NCBI GenBank assembly: GCA_902595845.1
Contig: CACJRN010000002.1
Span: 78,294 to 142,293 of the forward strand
Origin: an uncultured Gammaproteobacteria bacterium
GTDB lineage: Bacteria > Pseudomonadota > Gammaproteobacteria > Steroidobacterales > UBA11654
DNA length: 64,000 nucleotides
Reading direction: 5' to 3'
Shown here one piece after another: positions 2,341-55,575 of this stretch; position 1 is the stretch's first letter; each line of letters opens with the position of its first letter. The notes under the pieces were generated by a model, which saw only the letters and a list, made by a program, of their open reading frames with translations, was not told the origin of the DNA and ran no database searches. The translations under genes and the position numbers were made by a program.

Positions 2341-2375
2341 AAAAAAACGGCATGAGTTTTCATGCCGTTTTTTTT
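2341..2375 (-). terminator. Rho-independent terminator downstream of acpP (symmetric, potentially bidirectional)
   Basis: A7-CGGCATGA-GTTT-TCATGCCG-T8. This is a perfect 8-bp stem flanked by A and T runs, 18 nt after the acpP stop. Confidence 0.8.
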
Positions 2376-38641: not shown

Positions 38642-38670
38642 TTGACAAAAAGCCTGACTTCGATGAATAT
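38642..38670 (+). promoter_or_regulatory. candidate sigma70 promoter for the ilv-leu leader
   Basis: TTGACA (38642-38647), a 17-nt spacer, then GAATAT (38665-38670), 7 nt before the leader ATG region. The -10 element is weak. Confidence 0.35.
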
Positions 38671-38676
38671 TTGCGA

Positions 38677-38775
38677 ATGAAAAGTATGAATAACAATGAA
38701 GTTTTAATAACTAGTTACGGGTCAGAAGAGATTTTACTGAACCTGCTGCTAATTTGTCATCCAGGGGCAAGATAG
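38677..38775 (+). CDS. candidate ilv-leu leader peptide (32 aa)
   Basis: My reading gives MKSMNNNEVLITSYGSEEILLNLLLICHPGAR*. It has 6 Leu, 3 Ile and 1 Val codons. Seven of the eight codons in the block ILLNLLLI are Leu or Ile. It ends 29 nt before the terminator stem. Confidence 0.45.
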   Translation: MKSMNNNEVLITSYGSEEILLNLLLICHPGAR

Positions 38776-38803
38776 AGTTTTTTACTTTTAAAAGAATTTT
38801 TGA

Positions 38804-38831
38804 GGCCCCGCAAAAAAGCGGGGTTTTTTTT
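38804..38831 (+). terminator. intrinsic terminator (attenuator) immediately upstream of ilvC
   Basis: GG-CCCCGC-AAAAAA-GCGGGG-T8, strand-specific (U-run on the plus strand only). It lies 28 nt before the ilvC ATG. No plus-strand gene lies upstream for it to terminate. Confidence 0.7.
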
Positions 38832-38858: not shown

Positions 38859-39875
38859 ATGCAAATTTATTATGACAGTGATGCTGATCAGAATATCGCA
38901 AAAGGGATGGAAATAGTCATCATTGGTTATGGATCGCAAGGACATGCTCATGCAAACAATCTTAAAGATTCAGGTGCCAATGTTACGGTTGCTCTTAGAA
39001 AAGAATCTGGATCATGGGCAAAAGCTGAAGCTGCTGGTTTTGATGTCAAAGAGGTAGGCGAAGCTGTACCCAATGCAGATCTTGTCATGATGCTTATTCC
39101 AGATGAGAAACAATCAGCTATGTATGAGAATCATTTAAAAGACAATATAAAAGATGGAGCAGTTCTGGCATTTGCTCATGGATTTAATATCCACTTTGAA
39201 ATGATTATTCCTAGAGATGATCTGGATGTAATTATGGTTGCGCCGAAAGGCCCAGGCCATACTGTTCGATCGCAATATGAATCAGGAGCGGGAGTACCAT
39301 GCTTATTGGCTGTGTATAGAAATGTCTCCGGAAAAGCAAAAGATGTTGGGCTTTCATATGCATCTATGATTGGTTCTGGCCGAGCTGGAATTATTGAGAC
39401 AAATTTTAAAGATGAGACTGAAACAGATCTATTTGGAGAACAAGCGGTCCTTTGTGGAGGTTTAACGTCACTTATTCAAACTGGTTATGAAGTTCTGGTA
39501 GAAAATGGTTATCCACCAGAAATGGCATATTTTGAATGTCTTCATGAAGTAAAATTAATTGTTGACCTCATTTATGAAGGTGGTCTTCAGAATATGAGAT
39601 ATAGCATTTCCAATACTGCAGAGTATGGAGATTATGTGACAGGACCAAAGATTGTGAATGAAAATACAAAGGAAACGATGCAGAAGATATTGACTGAGAT
39701 TCAGTCTGGAGAATTCGCGAAAGATTTTATGAATGACTGTAACTCTGGTGGTCAGAAAATGAGCGAATATAGAAAAAACTCCTCAGAACATTCAATCGAG
39801 TCAGTGGGCGAAGAGCTTCGTTCAATGATGCCCTGGATATCTGCCAATAAAATTGTTGATAAAGCCAAAAACTAA
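38859..39875 (+). CDS. ilvC: ketol-acid reductoisomerase (class I)
   Basis: 338-aa ORF with the [15 protein letters not shown] Rossmann motif. An SD AAGGAG lies 8 nt upstream. Confidence 0.97.
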
Positions 39876-39877
39876 TC

Positions 39878-41413
39878 ATGAAAGATTCTAGAGAAATAAT
39901 TATATTTGATACCACTTTGAGAGACGGTGAGCAGGCTCCCGGCTGCAGTATGACAATTGGTGAAAAACTAAAAATTGCACATGCACTTAAAGAATTAAAT
40001 GTTGATGTAATTGAGGCTGGTTTTGCAGCAGCATCACCAGGTGATTATGAAGCTGTGAATGCAATTGCCTCTGAGATTGATGGACCAACTATCTGCTCTC
40101 TTGCAAGATGCAATGAAAGCGATATAGAAAAAGCATATGAGGCACTTAAGGTTAATAAAAACAGAAGAATCCATGTTTTTGTCGCCACCAGTGAAATACA
40201 TCTCAAGCACAAACTAAATATGGCTAAAGATGAAGTGCTTAAAGCTGCTTATGAAGGCGTTAAAATGGCAAAGTCATTGTGTGATAATGTTGAGTTTTCA
40301 CCAGAAGATGCTTCAAGAACTGATCATGGTTTTCTCACAGAAGTGGTCAATGCTGCAATTGAAGCAGGCGCCACAACAATTAATGTTCCTGATACAGTTG
40401 GTTACACAATCCCATATGAGTTCGGCGAACTGTTTAAACATTTGATTGATAATTGTGACAATGCAGAGAATGTTGTTTTTAGTGTTCACTGTCACGATGA
40501 CCTCGGCCTTTCAGTAGCCAATAGTTTGGCTGCGGTTGAATCCGGAGCGAGACAAATCGAATGTACCATTAATGGTATAGGAGAGAGAGCTGGAAATACC
40601 TCACTTGAAGAAGTGTGCATGGCAATTAGAACAAGGGAAGAGTATTTTGATTTTAAAACATCAATAGATTCAACAAAATTATATCCCACGAGTAGATTGG
40701 TTTCCTCTATCACGGGGATGCATGTTCCTAGAAACAAAGCAATTGTTGGCGATAACGCATTTGCTCATGAAGCTGGTATCCATCAACATGGAATGCTTAG
40801 AGATTCTTCAACATATGAAATCATGAAGCCTCAAGATGTTGGTATTGCTAGATCAAATCTCGTTCTTGGAAAACACAGCGGCAGACATGCTTTTTTGGAC
40901 AGAATCAACGATTTGGGGTTTAAGCTCGAAAAGGATGAGATTGATCCAGCTTTTCGAGAATTCAAGAAATTGGCTGACAAAAAGAAGGAGATCTTTGATA
41001 CAGACATAGAAGCAATAGTTTTAAATGCGGATATTGCAAATATGAGTCGATGGTCGCTGGAAGATCTTGAAACAAACTCTGGCTCCTCATGGGGTTCCAC
41101 AGCATCATTAAAATTAGTAGATTCAGGTGAAAATATCATTGAAAGGGATAATAAGGAGAATCCAGCCAGTGGGCCGATTGAGGCTGTTTTTAATATCATC
41201 AGTGATATTACGGGATATCAGCTTGAATTGACTAACTTTGAAATTCACAGCGTCAGTGTTGGCGATGATGCTCAAGGTGAAGTCACTGTCACAGTCAGCT
41301 ATGATGGACAGAATTATAGAGGGCATGGCATCAGTACTGATATCATTGAGTCTGGCGCTTTGGCTTATCTTGAGGTCATTAACCGAATAGAAAGAAATCA
41401 AGCAAAACATTAG
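39878..41413 (+). CDS. leuA: 2-isopropylmalate synthase
   Basis: 511-aa ORF with IFDTTLRDGEQ, a HCHDDLG(L) metal site, and the C-terminal LeuA dimerisation/regulatory domain. Confidence 0.97.
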   Translation: MKDSREIIIFDTTLRDGEQAPGCSMTIGEKLKIAHALKELNVDVIEAGFAAASPGDYEAVNAIASEIDGPTICSLARCNESDIEKAYEALKVNKNRRIHVFVATSEIHLKHKLNMAKDEVLKAAYEGVKMAKSLCDNVEFSPEDASRTDHGFLTEVVNAAIEAGATTINVPDTVGYTIPYEFGELFKHLIDNCDNAENVVFSVHCHDDLGLSVANSLAAVESGARQIECTINGIGERAGNTSLEEVCMAIRTREEYFDFKTSIDSTKLYPTSRLVSSITGMHVPRNKAIVGDNAFAHEAGIHQHGMLRDSSTYEIMKPQDVGIARSNLVLGKHSGRHAFLDRINDLGFKLEKDEIDPAFREFKKLADKKKEIFDTDIEAIVLNADIANMSRWSLEDLETNSGSSWGSTASLKLVDSGENIIERDNKENPASGPIEAVFNIISDITGYQLELTNFEIHSVSVGDDAQGEVTVTVSYDGQNYRGHGISTDIIESGALAYLEVINRIERNQAKH

Positions 41414-41421
41414 GAGAAATT

Positions 41422-42351
41422 ATGCCACTCAAGCCAACAAAAAATATTTGGTTTAATAATGAATTAGTGCCTTGGGAGTCTGCTCAAGTTCATGTTCTGA
41501 GCTATGCATTGCATTATGGCTCTGCTGTTTTTGAAGGTATAAGAGCCTACTCTACAAATGACGGCTCAAAAATCTTCAGATTAAATGAACACATAAAAAG
41601 ACTCTTTAATTCAGCAAAGATCTATCGAATGAATATTGCTTATAGCGAAAATGAAATCATTGAAGCTTGCAGGAAAATTGTTTCTGTGAATGATTTGCAT
41701 AGCGGTGCTTATATAAGACCCATTGCATTCAGGGGATATAATGACCTTGGTCTCCATGCATCGATGGATGATGACATAGAAGTGGTTGTGGCTGCTTGGG
41801 AATGGGGTACCTACTTAGGCGCAGATGCTTTAGAGAATGGTGTAGATGTTTGTATTTCCTCTTGGAATAGGAATGCACCCAATACAATACCAGTTATGGC
41901 AAAGGCATCTGGGAATTACTTATCAGGGACATTGGTTGCAATAGAAGCAAAAGAAAATGGATACGATGAAGGCATCTGTCTTGATTCAGACGGATTTGTC
42001 AGTGAAGGCGCAGGTGAGAATATCTTTATGGTGAAAAATGGGTCTCTCATAACCCCTCCTCTCAGTTCATCAATTCTAGATGGAATCACAAGAGATTCCG
42101 TTATGAAAATTGCAAAAGATTTGAATATCGACTGCATTGAGAGAAGGATCACAAGGGAAGAGCTTTATCTTGCCGATGAGTTATTTTTCACTGGAACTGC
42201 TGCAGAAATTACCCCAATAAGAAGTGTTGATAGAATCGAGATTGGCGAAGGCAAAAGAGGTCCAATTACAGAGAGTATTCAGAATGTATTTTTTGGTTTA
42301 TTCACTGGTGAATCGGATGATAAATGGGATTGGTTGACTTCCGTTGAGTAA
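41422..42351 (+). CDS. ilvE: branched-chain amino acid aminotransferase
   Basis: 309-aa ORF with typical fold-type IV aminotransferase sequence ([34 protein letters not shown]). Confidence 0.95.
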
Positions 42352-43753
42352 ATCTCCAAAAACTCTATTTGAAAAGATCTGGCAGGATCATTTGGTTATT
42401 CAAGAGACCAAAGAGACACCTGCGATACTTTATATTGATCTTCATCTTATTCATGAAGTCACAACACCTCAGGCATTTCAGTCTTTGAGAGACAAAGGAT
42501 TGTCAGTCAGAGATCCAAAAAAAGTTTTAGCAACTATGGATCATTCCACTCCAACTCTTCCTGTCAATAGCATAGCTGACCTCGATATCGTTGCCGAAAA
42601 AGGACCTGCTGATCAAATAAGAGACATGATCAAGAATTGTGAAGATTTTGGTATTGAGCTACATGGATTTGGCTCGGATAAGAGAGGTATTGTTCATGTG
42701 ATTGGTCCTGAGCTTGGCGCCACACAGCCGGGAAAAACAATTGTATGTGGGGATAGCCATACCAGTACGCATGGCGCATTTGGAGCGCTAGCATTCGGTA
42801 TAGGTACCACAGAGGTTGGACATGTTTTGGCATCTCAGTGTCTTCTTCAGAGAAAACCCAAGACATTTGCTGTGAATATGTCAGGAGCACTCAAATCTGG
42901 AGTGTCTGCAAAAGATATCATTCTAAAAATTATTCAAGAAGTTGGAGTCGATGGTGGTGTTGGACATATTATAGAGTATAGAGGCCAAACAGCAGGCCTT
43001 CTTTCTTTAGAGGAAAGGATGACCATTTGTAATATGAGCATTGAGGCTGGCGCAAGAGCCGGGATGTTTGCACCTGATGATAAAACATTTGACTACTTGA
43101 TAGATAAACCAATGTCGCCAAAAGGATTAGATTGGGATGAAGCAATACAGAGATGGTCTAGATTGGTTACTGATGAGAATGCTGAATTTGATAAAGAAGT
43201 AACCATTGATGTTGATCGATTGTCACCGATGGTCACCTACGGCACAAACCCAGGAATGGCAATGCAAATTGATGATGTCGTACCAGCATCAAATGGAGAT
43301 CTTGGTCATAAACAGTCACTGAATTATATGCAGATTGAAGCCGACAAACCCATTATAGGAAAAGAGATTGATGTAGTTTTTATAGGAAGTTGCACAAACT
43401 CAAGAATATCTGACCTTCATGATGCAGCCGAAATTCTCAAGGGCAGAAAAGTTTCAAATGGGGTTAGAGCATTGGTTGTACCAGGTTCTCAGGCAGTAAA
43501 GAAAGAAGCAGAAAGTTTAGGGCTGGATAAAATATTCGAATCAGCAGGAGCAGAATGGCGTGAATCTGGATGCTCGATGTGCCTTGGAATGAATGGTGAT
43601 ACAGTTGGAAATGGGCAATTGGCAGTGAGTACGAGTAACCGAAATTTTGAGGGTCGACAAGGTAAAGGGGCTAGAACAATACTAGCAAGTCCAAAAACTG
43701 CTGCTGCATCAGCGATTGCAGGATCTGTAGATGACCCAAGGAAATATAGTTAA
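42344..43753 (+). CDS. leuC: 3-isopropylmalate dehydratase large subunit
   Basis: 469-aa ORF (TTG start) with the aconitase-family Fe-S ligand blocks VCGDSHT, GSCTNSR and GCSMCLGMN. Confidence 0.97.
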
Positions 43754-43757
43754 CGAT

Positions 43758-44333
43758 ATGGAAAAGATTATTGAATTTAGTTCTAAAACTGTTGTTTTGT
43801 CAGTGAATGACATTGATACAGATCAAATTATCCCTGCTAGATTTTTAACAGTTACAACGAAAGACGGACTTGGCGATGGTTTATTTGCAGATTGGCGATT
43901 TGATGAAGACGGAAATAAAGTTGAACAATTTCCATTGAACCAGGATAAATCAGATGGGTGCACTATTTTAATTTCTGGCAGTAATTTTGGCTGTGGATCG
44001 TCACGTGAGCACGCTCCTTGGGCATTGGTTGATTATGGATTTAAGGCAATTTTATCAACCTCATTTGCAGATATTTTTAGAAACAATGCACTAAAGAATG
44101 GCCTATTGCCTCTTACAGTGTCAGAAGAGTTTCATGCGATGTTGACAGAGAATGAAGGGATTGAAGTCACTGTCAGTCTTGAAAAAATGATGATTCATGC
44201 CTCTAACGGGATGAAAGAAGCTTTCGATCTTGAGCCTTTTTCGAGATATTGCTTAATGAATGGTATTGATCAACTGGGATTCATCATGAATCACGAAGAA
44301 CAAATTAATGCATTTGAGAATAAAGGACAGTAA
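43758..44333 (+). CDS. leuD: 3-isopropylmalate dehydratase small subunit
   Basis: It has the GSNFGCGSSREHA motif. I set the start to ATG 43758 (MEKIIEF...), 4 nt after the leuC stop. The track ORF begins at 43731, inside leuC. Confidence 0.95.
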   Translation: MEKIIEFSSKTVVLSVNDIDTDQIIPARFLTVTTKDGLGDGLFADWRFDEDGNKVEQFPLNQDKSDGCTILISGSNFGCGSSREHAPWALVDYGFKAILSTSFADIFRNNALKNGLLPLTVSEEFHAMLTENEGIEVTVSLEKMMIHASNGMKEAFDLEPFSRYCLMNGIDQLGFIMNHEEQINAFENKGQ

Positions 44334-45389
44334 ATGAAAGCAGAAATCACCGTATTGGCTGGAGATGGTATCGGACCTGAGATCACTGAGCATGCATTAA
44401 ATATTCTCAATGCAATCGAAAAGAAATATGGACATGAATTCACATTACATGATGCACTGTTTGGCGGAATTGCAATTGATGAAACAGGCGATCCATATCC
44501 ACTAGAAACAAGAGAACTTTGTAAAAAATCTGATGCAGTCCTTTTGGGCGCAGTTGGCGGTCCGAAATGGAGTGATCCCAAAGCAAAAACAAGACCTGAA
44601 AAGGGACTACTTGATATGCGATCAGACCTAGGCGTCTATGCTAACTTAAGGCAAATAAAAACTTACCCTCAACTCATCGATAATTCACCGATAGAAAATG
44701 CCAAACTAAAAGACATTGATATTTTATTTGTAAGAGAATTAATAGGTGGTATTTATTTCGGTGAAAAAGAGAAAACTGACGACTACGCTAAAGATGTGTG
44801 TGAATATTCAGCATCTGAAATAGAGCGAATCGTAAAAGTTGCAGCAGATTTGTCAATGAAAAGAAAAAACAAGCTTACATCTGTTGATAAGGCCAACGTA
44901 ATGGCTACATCTCAACTCTGGAGATCTGTAACAATCGCTATGATTGAAAAAGAATATCCTGAGATAGAAATTGAACACCTTCTTGTTGATGCTGCTACTA
45001 TGCACCTCCTCTCACGTCCAGCTGATTTTGATGTGATTGTTGCTGAGAATTTATTTGGCGATATTCTGACGGATGAAGCATCTATGCTGACTGGATCTAT
45101 TGGTATGATTCCATCTGCGTCGCTCGGAGATAATAACTTTGGTGTATATGAACCTATTCATGGCTCAGCGCCTGATATTCAAGGCAAAGGACTCGCAAAT
45201 CCTAGTGGCATGATTCTTTCAGTGGCGATGATGTTAAAACATTCACTCAATCTGATTGAAGAATCAAATGATATCGAGAATGCCGTTGAAGAGGTTCTCA
45301 GTGACGGGATATTTACAGCTGATTTGTCATCTGAAGATCATGTTTCAACAGATGAGATGGGTAATGCCATTCTCTCAAAAATAGTTTAA
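44334..45389 (+). CDS. leuB: 3-isopropylmalate dehydrogenase
   Basis: 351-aa ORF with ITVLAGDGIGPEI, NLFGDILTDEASMLTGSIGM and EPIHGSAPDI motifs. Confidence 0.97.
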   Translation: MKAEITVLAGDGIGPEITEHALNILNAIEKKYGHEFTLHDALFGGIAIDETGDPYPLETRELCKKSDAVLLGAVGGPKWSDPKAKTRPEKGLLDMRSDLGVYANLRQIKTYPQLIDNSPIENAKLKDIDILFVRELIGGIYFGEKEKTDDYAKDVCEYSASEIERIVKVAADLSMKRKNKLTSVDKANVMATSQLWRSVTIAMIEKEYPEIEIEHLLVDAATMHLLSRPADFDVIVAENLFGDILTDEASMLTGSIGMIPSASLGDNNFGVYEPIHGSAPDIQGKGLANPSGMILSVAMMLKHSLNLIEESNDIENAVEEVLSDGIFTADLSSEDHVSTDEMGNAILSKIV

Positions 45390-45443
45390 CTTCTTTTTAA
45401 TTTCTTCTTGTATTCAATCTTTTTATGCCTATAATGTCACGCT

Positions 45444-45461
45444 GTACTAACACATTAGTAC
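45444..45461. promoter_or_regulatory. perfect palindrome (candidate operator) at the his-operon promoter
   Basis: GTACTAA-CACA-TTAGTAC starts 8 nt downstream of a consensus TATAAT (45430-45435). A possible -35 TTGTAT lies at 45408-45413. The palindrome ends 21 nt upstream of the yerC-like ATG. Confidence 0.4.
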
Positions 45462-45481
45462 ACTAGAACATAGGTATAAAG

Positions 45482-45802
45482 ATGAAAATAGAAAGAGTTT
45501 TAACAAAAAAAGAAGAAAAGCTCGCCGAAGAGCGATTCTATGAAGCAATAATGTCATTAAATGATGTGGATGAGTATCGATCATTCTTCAATGATATTTT
45601 TACACCAGCTGAATTTGAATCCATTAAAGACAGATGGAGTGTTGCTGAGCTTCTGGACAAGGGATACACATATAGAGAAATAAAGACAATGACTGGAGTA
45701 AGCCTGACAACTATCGGTAGAGTTGCAAGATTTCTGTTTGATGGAGCAAATGGTTACAAAGTGGCGCTGGAGAGAATAAAAACAAATGAAAGAAAGAATT
45801 AA
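45482..45802 (+). CDS. TrpR-like YerC/YecD-family DNA-binding protein
   Basis: 106-aa ORF. The pattern F...T..E......R..VA..L..G.TYREI...TG.S..TI.RV.R.L is as in Bacillus YerC. The 3' end overlaps hisG by 17 nt. Confidence 0.8.
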   Translation: MKIERVLTKKEEKLAEERFYEAIMSLNDVDEYRSFFNDIFTPAEFESIKDRWSVAELLDKGYTYREIKTMTGVSLTTIGRVARFLFDGANGYKVALERIKTNERKN

Positions 45803-46679
45803 AATTGCAGTTCAGAAATCTGGTAGGTTGACAGAACACAGCATTACCCTACTCCAGAAATGTGGTCTTATCATCAGTCATACAAAAGATCAGTTGATTG
45901 GATATGGTGAAAATATGCCATTTGATATCATGTTTGTCAGGGACGATGATATCCCTGGATTAATTCAGGAAAACCTTTGTGAAATTGGCATTGTTGGTGC
46001 AAATGTCGCAAGAGAGAAGCAGCTTTCGTATGAGTCGAGTCGATCATCCTCTAACTTTGACCTTGAGTCATCGCTTGATTTTGGACACTGTAAACTATCA
46101 TTTGCATATCCTGAGTCATCGAGCATTCGGTCTGTTAATGACCTTGATGGCAAAACAATTGCAACGAGCTATCCGTTTACAGTAAAAAATTACTTTACTA
46201 AGAATTCAATTGATGCAAATGTCACTGAATTCTCAGGTGCTGTAGAGTTGGCACCAAGTCTTGGTAAGGCAGACGCAATATGTGATCTCGTATCAACAGG
46301 TAATACCCTTAGAGCTCATAATCTAATGGCAGGAGAAACGATCTTAGAGAGCGTTGCAACGGTACTTAAGTCAAAATCAGAGCAGTCAGAATTTAAAAGC
46401 ATGTGGATTGAAAAGATCATTGAAAGAATCAATGGTGTTCTCCAAGTGAATGAGAGTAAATACATCATGATGCATGCACCTAAAAATGCGATCAATGAGA
46501 TCACTAAGCTTCTTCCTGGAACAGAATCACCGACTGTCATTCCTTTAGATGGTGTCAATGATACAGTAGCAGTTCATGTTGTTTGTAAAGAAACGGTCTT
46601 CTGGGAGACATTGGAAGAGCTGAAGGACGTAGGAGCATCATCTATCTTGGTAGTGCCAGTTGAAAAAATGTTGATGTAA
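45786..46679 (+). CDS. hisG: ATP phosphoribosyltransferase (long form)
   Basis: 297-aa ORF with the IKIAVQKSGRL N-terminus, DLVSTGNTLRAHNL, and the C-terminal regulatory domain. Confidence 0.95.
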   Translation: MKERIKIAVQKSGRLTEHSITLLQKCGLIISHTKDQLIGYGENMPFDIMFVRDDDIPGLIQENLCEIGIVGANVAREKQLSYESSRSSSNFDLESSLDFGHCKLSFAYPESSSIRSVNDLDGKTIATSYPFTVKNYFTKNSIDANVTEFSGAVELAPSLGKADAICDLVSTGNTLRAHNLMAGETILESVATVLKSKSEQSEFKSMWIEKIIERINGVLQVNESKYIMMHAPKNAINEITKLLPGTESPTVIPLDGVNDTVAVHVVCKETVFWETLEELKDVGASSILVVPVEKMLM

Positions 46680-47986
46680 TGACTATGAAGCTTGAAATCA
46701 TAAAATGGAATGACCTGACTGAAGATGAAAAGATAATATCCATTCAGAGGCCCACTCTTAACAGTTTAAAGGGCCAAGACTCAACTATCACTCAGATCTT
46801 TAAAGATGTAAGAGCAGATGGCGACGAAGCTGTGAAAAAATTCACGAGCATTTATGACGGAGTCAAGATAGATGATTTCTTGATGAGTGAAAAGGAGATT
46901 GATTCTGCATTTAGTAGAGTACCAAGAGATCTCATTCAATCGATCGAAAATGCAATTGAAAACGTAAAAACATTCCATGAAAAAAACTTCGAAAATGATT
47001 TAAATCCAGTACAAGTAAAATCGGGAATAAATTGTCAAATAATAAAAAGACCCATCGAAAAGGTAGGCCTTTATATACCTGCAGGGAATAACCCACTGCC
47101 TTCCACTGCAATCATGCTTGGTGTTCCATCTTCGCTGGCTAGAAATAAGCAATCCGTGGTTGTTTCACCACCCAATGATTTAGGTGTTGTCAATGATGCA
47201 GTCACGGTTGCAGCAAAGTTAAGCGGGATTGGTAAGATTTTCAAAGTGGGCGGCGCCCAATCGATCGCAGCCTTGGCATTAGGAACAGAATCGATTCCCC
47301 AGGTAGATAAAATATTTGGCCCAGGAAACAGTTGGGTAACAAGAGCCAAGCAGATGATTTCATTGCTGAATCTCCCCGTTTCAATTGATATGCCAGCAGG
47401 CCCCACCGAGGTTATGATCATTTCAGATGGCAATACGAACCCAGAATTTATTGCTTATGATTTGCTCTCACAAGCAGAGCATGGAATTGACTCACAAGTA
47501 ATATTAATCTCACAGAATGATACATTTCTTAAAGATGTTGCAATCGAGATTGATATAGCAATGTCGAAAATCAGCACTCGTGAAATTGCAGAAATTTCAA
47601 TGAAAAATTCTATGCTGATATTGACTGATAATATAGATGAAGCATTAAGTATCTCGAATGACTATGCACCTGAGCACTTAATTATTAACTGTAAGAATGC
47701 AGCAGAATTACTTCCAGGAATACAATCAGCAGGTTCTATATTCCTCGGTGAATGGAGTCCTGAATCAGCAGGAGACTATTGTAGTGGAACGAATCATGTC
47801 TTACCTACAGCAGGCTTTGCCAGATCCTATAGCGGCTTGTCTGTAGATAGCTTTTGTAAATCAATATCTGTTCAAAGCTTATCCAAAGAAGGATTGGAGT
47901 CAATTGGCGATGATATAATCAACCTAGCAATGGCTGAAGGGCTAGAGGCACATGCAAGAGCTGTCGAAGTGAGGATTAAGAAATGA
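46679..47986 (+). CDS. hisD: histidinol dehydrogenase
   Basis: 435-aa ORF with DMPAGPTEV, SQAEHG and APEHL motifs. Its TAATG junction overlaps the hisG stop. Confidence 0.97.
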   Translation: MTMKLEIIKWNDLTEDEKIISIQRPTLNSLKGQDSTITQIFKDVRADGDEAVKKFTSIYDGVKIDDFLMSEKEIDSAFSRVPRDLIQSIENAIENVKTFHEKNFENDLNPVQVKSGINCQIIKRPIEKVGLYIPAGNNPLPSTAIMLGVPSSLARNKQSVVVSPPNDLGVVNDAVTVAAKLSGIGKIFKVGGAQSIAALALGTESIPQVDKIFGPGNSWVTRAKQMISLLNLPVSIDMPAGPTEVMIISDGNTNPEFIAYDLLSQAEHGIDSQVILISQNDTFLKDVAIEIDIAMSKISTREIAEISMKNSMLILTDNIDEALSISNDYAPEHLIINCKNAAELLPGIQSAGSIFLGEWSPESAGDYCSGTNHVLPTAGFARSYSGLSVDSFCKSISVQSLSKEGLESIGDDIINLAMAEGLEAHARAVEVRIKK

Positions 47987-49035
47987 AAATCAAAGATTTG
48001 ATTCGTCCTGAAGTTTTAAATTTAAAACCATATGTCCCAGCCACCAAAGTACTGGACAAAATCAGATTAAATGCAAATGAAAGTCCATATTCCGTGACTC
48101 AGTCTGCCACTAGGGAATCATTGAATCTTTACCCAGACGCGAGACCTGATGAAATCAGAAACATGGTTGCTAGATACTTGGATATATCAAGCGATAATAT
48201 TGTCATCACAAGAGGAAGTACGGAGGCCATTGACGTAGCGATCCGAACATTTTGCATTCCAAATAAGGACGGAATATTAGTGTTTCCCCCTACATTTGAA
48301 ATGTATAAATTTTATGCTGAAGTTCAGGGAATAGAGATGCATTCAATACTCCTTGATCAAGACAATAACTATTCTCTGGATTTAAAGGCACTAGAAGCAT
48401 TTGATCCAAGTAAAGCTAAGTTGACATTTATATGTTCTCCTTCAAACCCGCTCGGACATAAGTTCAGCAAAGAATCCATTTATCGTGTATGCGAATATTT
48501 TTCAGATTCTGGACTTGTAGTCTTGGATGGGGCATATGTTGAGTTTGATAGTGATGAAGTTTATAAAGAGATTTTGTCTAAATTTGACAATGTAATTATT
48601 CTCAGAACTTTATCAAAAGCATTTGGCTTGGCTGGTGTGAGATGTGGAGTTTTAATCTCTAGCGATGAAATTTGTCAATATATTGAGAGAGTGATACCGC
48701 CCTACTCGTTCAGCACCCCTGCTGTGAACGCTGTCATTGAGAGCCTTTCTGATGAAGGCATTAAGGAATCAAAAAGAAACATAGAGACCATCATTGAAGA
48801 TAGAAAATGGCTTGAGACAGAATTGGCATCATTGGACGAAGTCATAGAGGTTTTTCCATCATATACAAACTTCATACTTGTCAAAGTGAATGATGCCAAA
48901 GCATTTTGTAAAAAGTCTCAAGATTTAGGATTTTTATTAAGAGATGTCAGCTATCAACCATTGCTTGAAAATTGTGTAAGAATTACTGTCGGCACGACCA
49001 AACAAAATCAAAAACTAATCAGAGGACTCAAATAA
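47983..49035 (+). CDS. hisC: histidinol-phosphate aminotransferase
   Basis: 350-aa ORF with LNANESPY and the PLP lysine block RTLSKAFGLAG. Confidence 0.93.
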   Translation: MKIKDLIRPEVLNLKPYVPATKVLDKIRLNANESPYSVTQSATRESLNLYPDARPDEIRNMVARYLDISSDNIVITRGSTEAIDVAIRTFCIPNKDGILVFPPTFEMYKFYAEVQGIEMHSILLDQDNNYSLDLKALEAFDPSKAKLTFICSPSNPLGHKFSKESIYRVCEYFSDSGLVVLDGAYVEFDSDEVYKEILSKFDNVIILRTLSKAFGLAGVRCGVLISSDEICQYIERVIPPYSFSTPAVNAVIESLSDEGIKESKRNIETIIEDRKWLETELASLDEVIEVFPSYTNFILVKVNDAKAFCKKSQDLGFLLRDVSYQPLLENCVRITVGTTKQNQKLIRGLK

Positions 49036-50114
49036 TGAATGAGCTACCATTAAAAGTGCTCTTTATCGATAGAGATGGAACAATTATTTATGAACCAGAT
49101 GATTTCCAAGTAGATGATTTGAAAAAAGTAAAGTTTGTGCCCAATGTCATTCGCGTCCTGAATGAATTAAGAAATGAAGGCTATGAACTGGTCATGGTTA
49201 GCAATCAAGATGGCTTGGGAACTGAATCATTTCCTCAAGAGCAATTCGAGTTATGCCAGAACTTTATGTTGAATACCCTATATTCTGAAGGCGTCTCATT
49301 CAGGGAAATATTTATTTGCCCACATTTTGAGACTGATAACTGTGACTGCAGAAAACCAAAGATTGGTTTGTTATCAGAGTTTTTAACACACAACAATATT
49401 GATACATCAAGGTCATATGTCATTGGTGACCGAGACACAGATATTGAATTGGCTAATAAGCTTAAACTTCCTGGAATAAAAATTGATCCACACAATGAAA
49501 ATGCTTGGATACAAATAAAAGAAGATATTCTAAGTTCTGATAGTAAAGCAACTGTGACCAGAACAACCAATGAGACCAATATTACATCAAAAGTAGACCT
49601 GTCATCAGATCGTGTAATTGATATTAAAACAGGCATTGGTTTTTATGATCACATGCTAGAGCAGCTCGCTAAACATTCAGGTATTTCCGTTCAAATAGAG
49701 TGTGATGGAGACCTCCATATAGATGAACATCATACAGTTGAAGATGTGGCAATCACATTGGGAGATGCACTTCGGCGTGCATTGAGCACTAAGGCAGGTA
49801 TTGAAAGATATGGATTTACACTTCCCATGGACGATGCACTATGCACAGTTTCAATGGATTTATCAGGAAGGCCATACTTTAAATTTGAAGGAGAGTTTAA
49901 AAGAGAAATTATTGGTGGGTTACCAACAGAGCTCATTATTCATTTTTTTTATACACTCAGTCAAAATCTAAAAGCAAATATTCATATTAGTGTGAATGGA
50001 GATGATGATCACCATAAGGCAGAATCGTGTTTTAAATGCTTTGGGAGAGCTTTTTCTCAAGCAATAAATAAATCCTCAAAATCTGGCGTGCCATCAACCA
50101 AGGGATCACTTTAG
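49035..50114 (+). CDS. hisB: bifunctional histidinol-phosphatase / imidazoleglycerol-phosphate dehydratase
   Basis: The HAD motif FIDRDGT and a CxC metal site are followed by the IGPD blocks (IDEHHTVEDVAITLG, DDHHKAES). I set the start to ATG 49035 (MNELPLKVLFIDRDGT), overlapping the hisC stop (TAATG). The track ORF starts at 48972, inside hisC. Confidence 0.95.
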   Translation: MNELPLKVLFIDRDGTIIYEPDDFQVDDLKKVKFVPNVIRVLNELRNEGYELVMVSNQDGLGTESFPQEQFELCQNFMLNTLYSEGVSFREIFICPHFETDNCDCRKPKIGLLSEFLTHNNIDTSRSYVIGDRDTDIELANKLKLPGIKIDPHNENAWIQIKEDILSSDSKATVTRTTNETNITSKVDLSSDRVIDIKTGIGFYDHMLEQLAKHSGISVQIECDGDLHIDEHHTVEDVAITLGDALRRALSTKAGIERYGFTLPMDDALCTVSMDLSGRPYFKFEGEFKREIIGGLPTELIIHFFYTLSQNLKANIHISVNGDDDHHKAESCFKCFGRAFSQAINKSSKSGVPSTKGSL

Positions 50115-50116
50115 TC

Positions 50117-50713
50117 GTGAAAAAAAAAGTTGCCATTATTGATTCAATTGGTTCCAACATGGCTTCTTTGATATTTGCATTAAAGAGAATTGATGTAAAT
50201 GTTGAAGTCACAAATGGAATATCGTCCATAAAAGAAGCCAGTCACATCATCTTACCTGGTGTCGGGGCTGCAAAGAATGCCATGATGCGGTTGAGGCAGA
50301 AAGAGCTGATAAATGAAATATCAAATTTTTCACAACCCACTCTGGGTATTTGTTTAGGCATGCAATTATTTATGAATGCCTCATTAGAAGACGATACAGA
50401 GTGTTTGGGAATTATTTCCAACTCATGCAAACCTTTTGAAAATCAAAAAGATTACCCAGTTCCACATATGGGATGGAATAAAGTTCATTTTAATACCAAT
50501 TCAAAACTAACAAAAAATCTAACCGATGGAGAATATTATTATTTTGTTCACTCCTATTATGTTCCAATCTGCAATGAAACGATCGGGGTCTCAAGATATC
50601 CAAATGATTTTTCTTCTGTGATTGAAAGAGATAACTTTTTTGGCACGCAGTTTCATCCTGAAAAATCAGGTTTACCTGGCGAAAAATTACTAGAGAACTT
50701 TGTAAATTTATGA
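50117..50713 (+). CDS. hisH: imidazole glycerol phosphate synthase, glutaminase subunit
   Basis: 198-aa ORF (GTG start) with the LPGVGA and GICLGMQL catalytic Cys blocks and C-terminal FHPEKS. Confidence 0.95.
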   Translation: MKKKVAIIDSIGSNMASLIFALKRIDVNVEVTNGISSIKEASHIILPGVGAAKNAMMRLRQKELINEISNFSQPTLGICLGMQLFMNASLEDDTECLGIISNSCKPFENQKDYPVPHMGWNKVHFNTNSKLTKNLTDGEYYYFVHSYYVPICNETIGVSRYPNDFSSVIERDNFFGTQFHPEKSGLPGEKLLENFVNL

Positions 50714-51453
50714 ACATGAATTTAATACCAGCAATTGATTTACTTGACCAGAAATGTGTCAGGCTGCTTCGAGGCGATTTTGATCAGGTGACCTTTTATG
50801 ACAAAGATCCGCTTCAATTAGCCACCCATTATGAATCTCTTGGCTGCAAAAATTTACATTTGGTGGATCTAAATGGAACAAGAGATGGAGCCAGTAAAAA
50901 TAAGTCAATCATAGATTCAATTATTGCTAAAACAAATCTCAAGGTTCAGATGGGCGGTGGAATTCGCTCGATTGAATCAATTAATTACTGGCTTAATTCA
51001 AATTTAAGTAAAGTTGTAGTCGGAAGTTATGCGATTGAAGAGACTAATCAATTTATTTCATCGCTTGACCCTGGAATGCGTTCCAAAATAATTATTGCAT
51101 TGGACGTTCTGATTCGTGATGGTGAGCCTTCAATACGCATACATGGTTGGCAGAAAGATTCAAAAATGAGCCTCATACCCACTATGAAATTATTTATAGA
51201 CAATGGATTTAGAGACTTTTTGATCACTGATATCAGCAAAGATGGAACGCTTGAGGGTCCAAACATTGATTTATATGACGAAATTAATATTCGATTCAAT
51301 GAGATTAATATCATTGCTTCTGGCGGGGTTAGCGTTTTCGATGATCTCATCAAATTAGATAAAATATCACTGTCATCAGTGGTTGTTGGAAAATCATTGC
51401 TAGAAAATAAAATAACAGAACAAGAGGTAGTCCAATTCTTACAAAAAGGATAA
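50710..51453 (+). CDS. hisA: ProFAR isomerase
   Basis: 247-aa ORF with [15 protein letters not shown] and SGGVS motifs. Confidence 0.95.
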
Positions 51454-52202
51454 TCCCATGCTTGGATGTAAAAGACGGTCTAGTGGTCAAGGGCGTCCGA
51501 TTCAGGAACCATAAAGTGGTAGGCGATATCTTGCAATTAGCAGAGAGATACTCTAATCAGGGCGCAGATGAGCTTGTTTTTTATGACATCACAGCAAGTC
51601 CCGAAGATAGATCTGTTGATAGGTCATGGGTGAATCGCGTTGCAGAGAAGATTAATATCCCATTCTGTGTGGCAGGAGGAATTAGATCCATCGGTGATGC
51701 AGAAGAAGTTTTAAATTATGGAGCAGATAAGATATCGATTAATACACCTGCTATTAACAATCCAGATCTTATTGATGAACTGGCTAAAAGGTTTGGCACT
51801 CAATGTATTGTGATTGGGATTGATAGCTTTGAAGACGGAAATAACTACAAAGTTTTTAGTAATACCGGCGATCCAAGTAAAACAAGTGATACTGGTCTAT
51901 TTGTAAATGATTGGATCAAAGAAGTTCAAGAAAGAGGAGCTGGCGAAATTGTTTTAAATTGCATGAATCAAGATGGTGTAAGAGATGGTTATGATATTGA
52001 ACAATTGAAGACAATGCGATCGCATACAAACATTCCATTGATTGCATCGGGTGGTGCAGGAGAAATGAATCATTTTAAGGACGTTTTTCATATATCAGAT
52101 GTTAGCGGGGCACTAGCAGCTTCAGTTTTTCATAAAAGCATTATGAAAATTTGTGAATTAAAAGAATATTTAAGAGAGAACGACATAGAGGTTAGGTTAT
52201 GA
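51435..52202 (+). CDS. hisF: imidazole glycerol phosphate synthase, cyclase subunit (probable non-canonical ATT start)
   Basis: The track ORF starts at TTG 51462 (MDVKDG...). The same frame is open upstream and encodes the conserved beta-1 strand: ATT CTT ACA AAA AGG ATA ATC CCA TGC TTG GAT reads (M)[17 protein letters not shown] at 51424-51427 lies 7 nt before ATT 51435. The frame has no ATG, GTG or TTG between the stop at 51408 and 51462. Confidence 0.85.
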
Positions 52203-52507
52203 CAGCTAAAGAGAATAATTTTATTGAAGAGCTAGAGAGAGTAATTAAGGATAGAGCAGAATCCATTGATATTAATAAAAGCTATACCAGAGATCTTTTG
52301 GCATCTGGCAAGGATAGAATCGCAAAAAAAGTAATCGAAGAAAGTGGTGAGTTAGCTGTTGCATACTTAAATAATGAGACAAATAAAGATGAAATCATTT
52401 GGGAGAGTGCCGACCTTCTTTATCATATGATGGTTTTACTTCATTCAGCAGATATAACAATGAATGATATTTCAACTGAGCTAAAAAAAAGAAACCAATC
52501 AAATTAG
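52199..52507 (+). CDS. hisE: phosphoribosyl-ATP pyrophosphatase (stand-alone)
   Basis: 102-aa ORF with the EE.GE......E..DLLYH..VLL motif of MazG-like PRA-PH. An ATGA overlap joins it to hisF. No cyclohydrolase domain is attached. Confidence 0.9.
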
Positions 52508-55501: not shown

Positions 55502-55575
55502 TCGGGACGGCTGGATTTGAACCAGCGACCACTTGACCCCCAGTCAAGTGCGCTACCAGACTGCGCCACGCCCCG
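55502..55575 (-). tRNA. tRNA-Pro (anticodon GGG)
   Basis: The reverse complement folds by hand into a 74-nt cloverleaf. Acceptor stem CGGGGCG/CGUCCCG, D stem GCGC/GCGC, anticodon stem CUUGA/UCAAG with loop CUGGGGG, T arm GCUGG-UUCAAAU-CCAGC, discriminator A. CCA is not encoded. Confidence 0.92.

What the first reader, a model, noticed from the sequence alone, without database searches (positions are those of the whole stretch)
45408..45802. TrpR/YerC-like regulator as the first, overlapping gene of the his operon, with a perfect palindrome at its promoter
**Seen in the sequence**
- A 106-aa YerC/YecD (TrpR-fold) ORF starts the his block, and its 3' end overlaps hisG by 17 nt.
- Upstream there is no His-codon leader peptide and no terminator.
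- Instead there is a consensus TATAAT (45430-45435), followed 8 nt later by the perfect inverted repeat GTACTAA-CACA-TTAGTAC (45444-45461). This is the position expected for a repressor operator.

**Established knowledge**
Gammaproteobacterial his operons are classically controlled by His-leader attenuation. As far as I recall, TrpR-family proteins of the YerC type have been predicted as histidine repressors mainly in Firmicutes.

**Inference**
This lineage may have replaced attenuation with an autoregulated YerC-type repressor that binds this palindrome.
Basis: partly seen in the sequence, partly recalled or inferred. Interest (0 to 1): 0.6.

Follow-up and report, generated by a model that had tools for sequence, protein, structure and literature searches.

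The report
HisR histidine repressor and its operator
The small gene that opens this marine bacterium's histidine operon is a HisR-type (TrpR-family) repressor, and the palindrome at its promoter is its binding site, an arrangement already predicted for other Gammaproteobacteria in 2022, so this is a new example of a known kind.

Summary
ORF 45482-45802 is a YerC/YecD TrpR-family protein (PF01371 9.7e-24; TIGR02531 78 bits). It overlaps hisG by 17 nt and heads hisR-hisGDCBHAFE.

The palindrome is really 8+4+8, TGTACTAA-CACA-TTAGTACA (45443-45462), 7 nt after a TATAAT. There is no His leader, T-box or terminator upstream.

A palindrome of this size alone is not beyond chance (3 in the window, 2.1 expected). 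Conservation makes the case:
- TGTAnTAnnnnnnTAnTACA lies upstream of the orthologous gene in all 80 related genomes fetched (35-73% GC). It has 0 mismatches in 46 and at most 1 in 75.
- It occurs nowhere else in those 477 kb.
- hisG follows in 78 of 78 untruncated loci.
- The variable positions do not covary, so it is a DNA site, not an RNA hairpin.

Ashniev et al. 2022 (PMC9413887) already describe this. [quoted passage not shown]

Histidine-dependent binding has been shown only for a Firmicute HisR.

Minor additions:
- extra half-sites in 8-bp register;
- retention of TrpR DNA-contact residues;
- the same 20-mer class at enterobacterial aroH.

The parts
45408..45413 (+). -35-like hexamer TTGTAT (3 of 6 matches to TTGACA), 16 nt upstream of the -10
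   Evidence: Read from the sequence. TTGTAT or TTGATA is kept at the same place in the closest relatives, while the flanking intergenic sequence diverges. The consensus scan does not list it because the -35 is weak.
45430..45435 (+). consensus -10 hexamer TATAAT of the hisR-his promoter
   Evidence: TATAATGTC is invariant in the 13 sequences of the window's clade in alignment A2. In most distant relatives, a -10-like TAnTAAT overlaps the left edge of the operator instead.
45443..45462 (.). core HisR operator: the perfect 20-bp palindrome TGTACTAA-CACA-TTAGTACA, at about +1 to +20 of the inferred transcript
   Evidence: This is the only copy in the window. It scores 27.8 bits with a PWM built from 80 orthologous sites, and the next best position in 64 kb scores 4.8 bits. 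The motif is conserved in 80 of 80 related loci. It fits the published proteobacterial HisR sites.
45463..45470 (.). possible extra half-site CTAGAACA (1 mismatch to nTAnTACA), in 8-bp register with the core operator
   Evidence: 29 of 81 loci have this right-flank half-site with at most 1 mismatch, against a background of 0.2% per position. The information-content profile shows conservation at +20..+27 and at -8..-1. The shifted register at 45451 is the second-best PWM hit in the window. Its function is inferred.
45472..45474 (+). Shine-Dalgarno-like AGG, 7 nt before the hisR ATG
   Evidence: (T/G)AGG is conserved in the window's clade.
45482..45802 (+). hisR: 106-aa YerC/YecD-type TrpR-family regulator
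   Evidence: PF01371 matches at 9.7e-24. TIGR02531 scores 78.2 bits against a cut-off of 42.2, while TrpR TIGR01321 scores 30.3 against 67.25. PDB 3G1C, 3KOR and 3FRW match at 1e-13 to 1e-24. The exact protein is found on hundreds of marine contigs.
45786..46679 (+). hisG, long form with the C-terminal regulatory domain; overlaps hisR by 17 nt
   Evidence: PF01634 and PF08029; TIGR00070 and TIGR03455. hisG follows hisR in 78 of 78 untruncated related loci, and the two genes overlap in 30 of them.
46679..47986 (+). hisD
   Evidence: PF00815, 2.9e-150.
47983..49035 (+). hisC
   Evidence: PF00155, 3.5e-54.
49035..50114 (+). bifunctional hisB (histidinol-phosphatase plus IGP dehydratase). The mechanical ORF starts at TTG 48972. 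The likely start is 49035, by comparison with gene calls on identical contigs.
   Evidence: PF00475 plus HAD/PNK3P domains. Gene calls in L178.
50117..50713 (+). hisH
   Evidence: PF00117.
50710..51453 (+). hisA
   Evidence: PF00977.
51462..52202 (+). hisF
   Evidence: PF00977.
52199..52507 (+). hisE (PRA-PH only), the last gene of the operon; there is no hisI cyclohydrolase domain
   Evidence: PF01503; TIGR03188. The cyclohydrolase half of a recalled E. coli HisI finds nothing in the window.

Best explanation
The ORF is a HisR-type member of the TrpR family and is the first, translationally coupled gene of hisR-hisGDCBHAFE.

The model runs as follows. A HisR dimer binds the 20-bp palindrome TGTACTAACACATTAGTACA. 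The palindrome starts 7 nt after the TATAAT, at about +1 to +20 of the inferred transcript. Additional dimers may bind flanking half-sites in 8-bp register, as E. coli TrpR does. Binding occludes RNA polymerase and so represses the whole operon, including hisR itself. Histidine is the inferred co-repressor.

This protein-operator switch stands where Enterobacteria use the His-leader attenuator. Enzyme-level feedback is still available through the long-form HisG regulatory domain.

What is shown here:
- family membership;
- operon architecture;
- conservation and exclusivity of the motif;
- its position relative to the promoter;
- the absence of RNA control elements.

What is inferred:
- actual binding;
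- repression rather than activation;
- histidine as the ligand, by homology with the R. gnavus HisR assay in PMC9413887.
For: Family:
- PF01371 matches at 9.7e-24.
- TIGR02531 is above its cut-off, and TrpR TIGR01321 is below its cut-off.
- A profile of the family hits the YerC-type structures 3KOR, 3FRW and 3G1C at about 1e-24, but TrpR proper only at about 1e-3. 3G1C is the protein called HisR in PMC9413887.

Architecture:
- hisG follows within 82 nt in 78 of 78 untruncated related loci.
- It overlaps in 30 of them and is 0-20 nt away in 22.

Operator:
- TGTAnTAnnnnnnTAnTACA lies 22-130 nt before the hisR start in 80 of 80 loci with GC of 35-73%.
- Mismatch counts are 0 in 46 loci, 1 in 29, 2 in 4 and 3 in 1.
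- All 82 sites with at most 1 mismatch in 477 kb are upstream of hisR.
- In the window's own clade, the -35, the -10, the palindrome and the RBS are conserved islands in a diverging spacer.

Not an RNA hairpin:
- Positions 5/16 are complementary in 29 of 81 sites, which is the chance level.
- There are 0 compensatory pairs.

Literature:
- The published proteobacterial motif, and sites in Xanthomonas, Dyella and Fangia, differ from this one at 1-3 positions, all but one of them among the motif's variable positions (Fangia also changes one core base).
- The published operon is hisR-hisGDC(JB)FAH(IE).
- Histidine-dependent DNA binding was shown for R. gnavus HisR.

DNA-contact residues:
- TrpR Arg69, Thr81 and Arg84 align with invariant R65, T77 and R80.
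- The same 20-mer class is the ppsR-aroH intergenic site of Enterobacteriaceae. aroH is a known TrpR target (PMC5343134).

No leader, T-box or terminator is present.
Against: - No proteobacterial HisR has been tested for DNA binding or for its effector. The only assay is on a Firmicute protein whose operator consensus is different (cacTTTA-N6-TAAAgtg).
- The -35 element is weak, at 3 of 6 matches.
- No terminator separates leuB from hisR. Read-through from the upstream ilvC-leu cluster could therefore express the his genes independently of this promoter.
- The operator class cannot be told apart from a TrpR operator. A true TrpR elsewhere in the genome, which was not visible to me, could also bind it.
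- No second site was found to define a wider regulon.
Confidence: 0.82

Rival explanations
1. The protein is a tryptophan-responsive TrpR, or responds to some ligand other than histidine. It merely sits next to the his genes and binds a TrpR-type operator.
For: - The operator closely resembles the E. coli TrpR consensus quoted in PMC9413887 (TGTAcTnGTnnACnAgTACA).
- The same degenerate 20-mer pattern (TGTAYTAACASAYTAGTACA) matches the enterobacterial aroH operator region.
- The TrpR residues T44, R54 and R84, which hold the amino-acid ligand in TrpR (my own knowledge of the TrpR structure), align with T41, R51 and R80.
Against: - TIGR01321 TrpR scores 30.3 bits against a cut-off of 67.25, while TIGR02531 YerC/YecD passes.
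- PDB TrpR chains match at only about 1e-3, against 1e-24 for the YerC-type structures.
- Linkage to hisG is 78 of 78, often with overlapping reading frames.
- The motif never occurs elsewhere in those loci.
- There are no trp or aro genes nearby.
Confidence: 0.07
2. The palindrome works as RNA: a 5'-UTR stem-loop, a leuB terminator, or an RBS-sequestering structure. It is not a protein-binding DNA site.
For: - The 92-nt intergenic RNA of the window folds at -18.3 kcal/mol, z = -4.4, with a long stem that includes the palindrome and the RBS.
Against: - The extended stem is not conserved even among close relatives.
- The consensus fold keeps only the 7-pair core, with 0 compensatory changes.
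- Across 81 sites, the variable mirror positions are complementary only at chance frequency, while specific bases are invariant from 35 to 73% GC.
- There is no T-run after the stem, and no terminator-like site is called.
- The stem is AT-rich.
Confidence: 0.03
3. Chance palindrome: the his genes are simply co-transcribed with the upstream ilv-leu cluster or expressed constitutively, and the YerC-like protein has an unrelated role.
For: - Perfect 8-4-8 inverted repeats are expected about twice per 64 kb.
- There is no terminator after leuB.
- leuB lies directly upstream in 12 related loci.
Against: - The chance of a site with at most 1 mismatch in 300 nt is about 7e-4 by simple calculation, yet 75 of 80 loci have one at the same place.
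- hisR-hisG linkage persists in loci without leuB upstream.
- The -10 and -35 are conserved.
Confidence: 0.02

Closest known systems
HisR, proteobacterial branch (TrpR family; Ashniev et al. 2022, BMC Genomics, PMC9413887)
   Same: - Same protein family.
[quoted passage not shown]
- A single local 20-bp palindromic site lies upstream of hisR.
- The site sequence is nearly identical to published ones (Xanthomonas tgtactaacacgttattaca, Dyella tgtattaacgcattagtaca, Fangia tgtattaacacattaacaca).
- Autoregulation is implied.
   Different: - The lineage is an abundant uncultured marine gammaproteobacterium (NCBI 'Gammaproteobacteria bacterium' MAGs). It is not one of the cultured taxa listed in the paper.
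- The operon ends in hisE alone instead of a fused hisIE.
- The -10 lies 7 nt upstream of the site rather than overlapping it.
- The operon sits directly downstream of ilvC-leuA-ilvE-leuCDB.
HisR of Firmicutes (Ruminococcus gnavus protein assayed; Eubacterium eligens structure 3G1C)
   Same: - Same YerC/YecD family, with 3G1C matching at 8.6e-15.
- Controls his genes.
- 20-bp palindromic operator.
- Histidine enhances DNA binding in vitro.
   Different: - The operator consensus is cacTTTAnnnnnnTAAAgtg, not TGTAnTA...TAnTACA.
- hisR is often a separate gene, and the regulon also includes transporters.
- According to the paper, TrpR Arg69 is replaced by Tyr in most HisR. Here an invariant Arg (R65) aligns with it.
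E. coli tryptophan repressor TrpR and its operators (trp, aroH, trpR, mtr, aroL)
   Same: - Same fold family (PF01371).
- Same operator class. The degenerate form of this window's 20-mer finds the ppsR-aroH intergenic region of Enterobacteriaceae.
- The 8-bp-phased extra half-sites recall tandem TrpR binding. That comparison rests on my own knowledge of TrpR literature.
- Autoregulation.
   Different: - It fails the TrpR equivalog model, scoring 30.3 against 67.25.
- It is linked to his genes, not to trp or aro genes.
- The effector is presumed to be histidine.
His-leader transcription attenuator of Enterobacteria (Rfam RF00514)
   Same: Same regulatory task: histidine-dependent control at the 5' end of a compact his operon.
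   Different: That is an RNA and ribosome mechanism, and it is absent here. The nearest leader-like element in the window is Leu/Ile-rich and precedes ilvC, not the his genes.

Membership tests
HisR (YerC/YecD-type TrpR-family histidine repressor) | Protein matches PF01371 and the YerC/YecD model TIGR02531 above the curated cut-offs | tested here: met
   PF01371 scores 83.7 bits against a cut-off of 27. TIGR02531 scores 78.2 bits against 42.2.
HisR (YerC/YecD-type TrpR-family histidine repressor) | Closer to YerC/HisR-type proteins than to TrpR proper | tested here: met
   The family profile matches 3KOR, 3FRW and 3G1C at 1e-24 to 1e-23, and TrpR chains at 1e-3 to 1e-2.
HisR (YerC/YecD-type TrpR-family histidine repressor) | Genomic linkage to histidine biosynthesis or transport genes. 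[quoted passage not shown] | tested here: met
   In the window, hisR overlaps hisG by 17 nt and is followed by hisDCBHAFE. hisG follows in 78 of 78 related loci.
HisR (YerC/YecD-type TrpR-family histidine repressor) | 20-bp palindromic site upstream that matches the lineage motif (proteobacterial TGTAnTAr-nnnn-yTAnTACA) | tested here: met
   TGTACTAACACATTAGTACA at 45443-45462. It fits the printed motif apart from what appears to be a misprint in the printed right half. It also fits the individual published sites.
HisR (YerC/YecD-type TrpR-family histidine repressor) | Site conserved upstream of orthologues (phylogenetic footprint) | tested here: met
   80 of 80 loci have the site, 75 of them with at most 1 mismatch, and there are none elsewhere in 477 kb. 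Conserved islands appear in alignment A2.
HisR (YerC/YecD-type TrpR-family histidine repressor) | Histidine-dependent binding of the protein to the site | not testable with these tools
   Shown only for R. gnavus HisR, by fluorescence polarisation (PMC9413887).
TrpR (tryptophan repressor, equivalog TIGR01321) | Score at or above the TIGR01321 cut-off | tested here: not met
   30.3 bits against a cut-off of 67.25.
TrpR (tryptophan repressor, equivalog TIGR01321) | Operators at trp, aro or trpR genes | tested here: not met
   The only site in the 64-kb window is at hisR. The neighbouring genes are leu and his. The rest of the genome was not visible.
TrpR (tryptophan repressor, equivalog TIGR01321) | TGTACTAG-type palindromic operator and conserved DNA-contact residues | tested here: met
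   The operator class is shared with the enterobacterial aroH region. This is a resemblance in how it works, not membership.
His-leader attenuation (RF00514) or His T-box (RF00230) | Leader ORF with a run of His codons plus a terminator/antiterminator, or a covariance-model match | tested here: not met
   There is no Rfam match at gathering score or at E<=10. No terminator is called. The 92-nt spacer holds no ORF, and leuB coding sequence lies directly upstream.

The most novel reading that the evidence does not exclude
The operator may be more than the single 20-bp site described in the literature. It could be an array of TGTA / nTAn blocks in 8-bp register, with flanking half-sites in about 35-40% of loci. 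Two observations fit this: an exact 8-bp indel shifts the operator relative to the -10 between clades, and the window keeps a right-flank CTAGAACA.

On this reading, proteobacterial HisR binds as tandem, cooperative dimers, exactly like TrpR. It would have kept TrpR's DNA-reading head (Arg69, Thr81 and Arg84 equivalents) and switched only the ligand pocket from Trp to His.

In this genome it might additionally act as a roadblock to read-through from the attenuator-controlled ilv-leu cluster upstream.
Probability: 0.3. Interest if true: 0.4.

Novelty: new member of a known kind. Interest (0 to 1): 0.2.

Why it matters
The result confirms, on an independent and much larger set of genomes, a published but experimentally untested prediction. 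At least 577 matching stretches were found among GTDB species representatives, and the 80 examined span 35-73% GC. The prediction is that many non-enteric Gammaproteobacteria control histidine synthesis with a TrpR-like protein repressor rather than a leader attenuator.

The result also extends the prediction to a very abundant, streamlined marine planktonic lineage.

For annotation, 'YerC/YecD family TrpR-related protein' or 'hypothetical protein' at this locus can be renamed HisR.

The near-identity of HisR and TrpR operators makes this pair a convenient system for studying how a repressor changes its effector while keeping its DNA specificity. Beyond that, the finding is ordinary.

Tried and rejected
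- **RNA elements.** Rfam at gathering score over the whole window, and at E<=10 over 44000-46000, found no His leader, T-box or riboswitch.
- **Terminator after leuB.** None was found.
- **RNA hairpin reading.** The window's spacer folds well (z = -4.4). However, the extended stem is not conserved and shows no covariation, so I rejected this reading.
- **Second operator in the window.** None exists with the strict pattern at up to 3 mismatches, with the 12-base consensus at up to 2 mismatches, or by PWM.
- **Second regulon member in relatives.** I scanned metagenome contigs for TGTAYTAACASAYTAGTACA.
  - 33 of the 80 listed hits lie next to hisR-hisG.
  - About 30 are the enterobacterial ppsR-aroH region.
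  - The rest are single cases: possible GntR-type genes, coding sequence, or a low-GC contig, L132, with an identical 20-mer and no hisR.
  - No hisI or transporter target emerged.
- **hisI.** tblastn with an E. coli HisI sequence recalled from memory matched only the hisE half, at 52202-52498. The cyclohydrolase gene is outside the window or missing.
- **Taxonomy.** NCBI names for the exact proteins say only 'Gammaproteobacteria bacterium'. The nearest species representative is MAG MED656, at 87% amino-acid identity. I could not place the lineage more finely.
- **Palindrome significance.** Tested on its own, it is not significant.
- **Structure prediction.** Not run, because sequence matches to solved YerC-type structures were already unambiguous.

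Full report
**Observation**

ORF 45482-45802 (+) encodes 106 aa:

MKIERVLTKKEEKLAEERFYEAIMSLNDVDEYRSFFNDIFTPAEFESIKDRWSVAELLDKGYTYREIKTMTGVSLTTIGRVARFLFDGANGYKVALERIKTNERKN

- It matches Pfam Trp_repressor PF01371 at 9.7e-24.
- It matches NCBIfam TIGR02531 'YerC/YecD family TrpR-related protein' at 78.2 bits (cut-off 42.2).
- It fails the true TrpR equivalog TIGR01321, scoring 30.3 against 67.25.
- It overlaps hisG (ATG at 45786) by 17 nt.

The following genes are hisD, hisC, bifunctional hisB, hisH, hisA, hisF and a stand-alone hisE. hisG is the long form with its C-terminal regulatory domain.

Upstream on the same strand lie ilvC, leuA, ilvE, leuC, leuD and leuB. The leuB-hisR spacer is 92 nt and contains:

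- TTGTAT (45408-45413);
- a 16-nt spacer;
- TATAAT (45430-45435);
- 7 nt;
- the perfect palindrome TGTACTAA-CACA-TTAGTACA (45443-45462), one base longer per arm than reported;
- CTAGAACA;
- an AGG Shine-Dalgarno;
- the ATG.

**Is it more than chance?**

On its own, no. The window contains three perfect 8-4-8 inverted repeats, against 2.1 +/- 1.4 in simulated sequence. One of the others is an ordinary terminator. The case rests on comparison with related loci.

**Comparative evidence**

A search of one genome per GTDB species, using an alignment of homologues, found at least 577 stretches that encode a relative. I examined the best 80 loci. They come from marine and soil gammaproteobacterial MAGs and isolates, including Steroidobacteraceae, Woeseiaceae, 'Chromatiales', Povalibacter, Steroidobacter and Lysobacteraceae. 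Their GC content runs from 35 to 73%.

- *Motif upstream of hisR.* In every locus the best match to TGTAnTAnnnnnnTAnTACA lies 22-130 nt before the start codon of the homologue. It has 0 mismatches in 46 loci, 1 in 29, 2 in 4 and 3 in 1.
- *Exclusivity.* All 82 sites with at most 1 mismatch in the 477 kb fetched lie at that position, and none lies elsewhere. A simple calculation gives about 7e-4 expected sites per 300 nt.
- *Linkage to hisG.* hisG follows within 82 nt in 78 of 78 untruncated loci. The reading frames overlap in 30 of them, and the gap is 0-20 nt in 22.
- *Footprint in the window's own clade.* Contigs carrying 87-100% identical proteins were aligned as A2. The -35, TATAATGTC, the palindrome and the RBS are conserved islands in an otherwise diverging spacer.

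**DNA site or RNA structure?**

The invariant positions are specific bases (TGTA, TA, TA, TACA) whatever the genomic GC. The variable mirror positions 5/16 are complementary in 29 of 81 sites, which is the chance expectation.

RNAalifold keeps only the 7-pair core, with no compensatory change. The longer stem predicted for the window alone is not conserved. No T-run follows the stem.

The element is therefore a protein-binding site with two independently read half-sites.

**No RNA control of the his genes**

Rfam finds no His leader or T-box at gathering score, or at E<=10. The spacer holds no ORF, and leuB coding sequence abuts it.

The only leader-like element further upstream precedes ilvC. 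It is a small ORF ending ...EEILLNLLLICHPGAR, followed by GAGGCCCCGC-AAAAAA-GCGGGGTTTTTTTT. It is rich in Leu and Ile and has a single His codon.

**Promoter geometry**

With TATAAT at 45430-45435, the transcript should start near 45442. The operator then covers about +1 to +20. A bound protein there would exclude RNA polymerase, so I infer repression.

In most distant relatives, a -10-like TAnTAAT overlaps the left edge of the site, and CTTGC sits about 27 nt upstream. Clades L002-L004 differ from the window's clade by an exact 8-bp indel between the -10 and the palindrome.

**Extended operator**

Anchoring all 81 sequences on the core site shows extra information at -8..-1 (TGTAnTAA) and at +20..+27 (TTAnTACA).

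- The left flank has at most 1 mismatch in 34 of 81 sequences.
- The right flank has at most 1 mismatch in 29 of 81, against 0.2% per background position.
- Seven loci have two full overlapping sites offset by 8 bp.
- The window has the right-flank unit CTAGAACA.
- The 8-bp-shifted register is the second-best PWM hit in the whole 64 kb, at 4.8 bits against 27.8 for the core.

This recalls tandem binding of TrpR dimers, which I know from the TrpR literature. I found no mention of it for HisR in PMC9413887.

**What is known**

Ashniev et al. 2022 (PMC9413887) named this family HisR.

- They found it in 395 Firmicutes genomes and in 97 genomes from other phyla. These include 51 Gammaproteobacteria (Legionella, Francisella, Wohlfahrtiimonas, Xanthomonadales) and 11 Alphaproteobacteria.
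- The proteobacterial motif they derived is TGTAnTArnnnnyTnTTACA as printed. The right half appears to carry a misprint of TAnTACA. They describe the motif as close to the TrpR motif.
- Their supplementary table lists, for example, Xanthomonas tgtactaacacgttattaca, Dyella tgtattaacgcattagtaca and Fangia tgtattaacacattaacaca. All are upstream of hisR-hisGDC(JB)FAH(IE). The window's site is tgtactaacacattagtaca.
- Experimental support exists only for Ruminococcus gnavus HisR, whose DNA binding needed histidine.

A library search found no further work on proteobacterial HisR.

**Relation to TrpR**

A profile of the family matches the YerC-type crystal structures 3KOR, 3FRW and 3G1C at about 1e-24, and TrpR chains at only about 1e-3. 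3G1C is the E. eligens HisR of the paper.

| HisR (window) | E. coli TrpR |
|---|---|
| T41, P42 | T44, P45 |
| R51 | R54 |
| R65 | R69 |
| L75 | I79 |
| T76 | A80 |
| T77 | T81 |
| G79 | T83 |
| R80 | R84 |

T41, P42, R51, R65, T76, T77 and R80 are invariant in alignment A1.

Keeping the equivalents of the DNA-contact residues Arg69, Thr81 and Arg84 fits the TrpR-like operator. The paper reports Arg69 replaced by Tyr in most HisR, and those HisR read a different motif.

A metagenome scan for TGTAYTAACASAYTAGTACA returned 84 stretches, of which 80 are listed.

- 33 lie next to hisR-hisG.
- About 30 are one homologous locus of roughly 56% GC. BLAST against E. coli genomes identifies it as the ppsR-aroH intergenic region.
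- aroH is a classical TrpR target (PMC5343134).

The two regulators therefore read the same class of DNA site. What differs is the effector and the genes controlled.

**Organism**

The exact protein is in NCBI as HAH67009.1, MAP83705.1, MBI73603.1 and MEC9064647.1, from 'Gammaproteobacteria bacterium' MAGs. It occurs on hundreds of marine contigs, including Tara samples. The longest contig is 1.57 Mb. The window has 37.9% GC.

The nearest species-representative genome is MAG MED656, at 87% amino-acid identity. I could not name the lineage more precisely.

**Verdict**

The arrangement is a new instance, in an abundant uncultured marine lineage, of a regulon already predicted for Gammaproteobacteria.

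- Bioinformatic confidence that this is HisR with its operator is high.
- Histidine as co-repressor is inferred by homology.
- The direction of evolution ('replaced attenuation') is untested.
- Read-through from leuB remains possible, because no terminator separates the clusters.
- Interest is low. The modest additions are the much wider distribution, the 8-bp-phased extended operator, the retained TrpR DNA-contact residues, and the identity of operator class with enterobacterial aroH.

Noticed in passing
window 38671-38830 (+), upstream of ilvC (38859): A small ORF, MRMKSMNNNEVLITSYGSEEILLNLLLICHPGAR, has a Leu/Ile-rich run. It is followed by a strong terminator-like hairpin, GAGGCCCCGC-AAAAAA-GCGGGGTTTT plus a T-run (38802-38827), and then by the ilvC RBS. 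A TTGACA-N18-AATATT promoter-like site lies at 38642-38671. This looks like a branched-chain amino-acid leader-peptide attenuator for ilvC-leuA-ilvE-leuCDB. Rfam does not call it.
   Followed up: partly
window 38859-52507 (+): A 13.6-kb co-directional supercluster, ilvC-leuA-ilvE-leuC-leuD-leuB-hisR-hisGDCBHAFE, has no terminator-like site between leuB and hisR. leuB lies directly upstream of hisR (74-131 nt) in 12 of 80 related genomes, and within 1.3-2.8 kb in 28 more.
   Followed up: partly
window 52199-52507 (+): The operon ends with a stand-alone hisE (PRA-PH, 102 aa). No phosphoribosyl-AMP cyclohydrolase (hisI) domain was found anywhere in the 64-kb window, whereas the published gammaproteobacterial HisR operons end in a fused hisIE. 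The search used an E. coli HisI sequence recalled from memory.
   Followed up: partly
L121:4295-4314 and about 30 other loci (L093, L095-L097, L099, L100 and others): The 20-mer TGTACTAACACACTAGTACA differs from the window's operator at one base. It is conserved in the ppsR-aroH intergenic region of roughly 56%-GC enterobacterial contigs, which is the position of the classical TrpR operator of aroH.
   Followed up: yes
L018, L022, L023, L027, L031, L057, L065 (about 30-70 nt upstream of hisR); window 45463-45470: Seven related loci carry two full operator matches offset by exactly 8 bp. Flanking half-sites in 8-bp register are present in about 35-40% of loci. Clades differ by an exact 8-bp indel between the -10 and the operator.
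   Followed up: partly
window 2348-2367: The perfect palindrome CGGCATGA-GTTT-TCATGCCG is flanked by an A-run and a T-run. It is a bidirectional intrinsic terminator just after an acyl-carrier-protein-like ORF on the minus strand ([15 protein letters not shown]...[16 protein letters not shown]...).
   Followed up: partly
L132:4146-4165 (contig Ga0307510_10041094, 40% GC): A 20-mer identical to the window's operator (TGTACTAACACATTAGTACA) occurs with no hisR or hisG within the 5-kb contig. It is followed by a further GTACTAGTA. Its context was not examined.
   Followed up: no
L124 and L163 (about 60% GC); L098 and L151 (fermentation metagenome): The same 20-mer class sits between a TTGAC-type promoter and the start of genes that are not hisR. 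One begins MILRLNQSSGIPLYLQLMEQVK, which looks like a GntR-type N-terminus. This suggests that unrelated regulators use similar palindromes.
   Followed up: no
window 55502-55575 (-): A tRNA gene (Rfam RF00005, 64.9 bits), the only Rfam family called in the window.
   Followed up: no
window 48972-49035: The mechanical hisB ORF starts at TTG 48972 and would overlap hisC by 64 nt. Gene calls on contigs with identical proteins start hisB at the position equivalent to 49035 (359 aa).
   Followed up: partly
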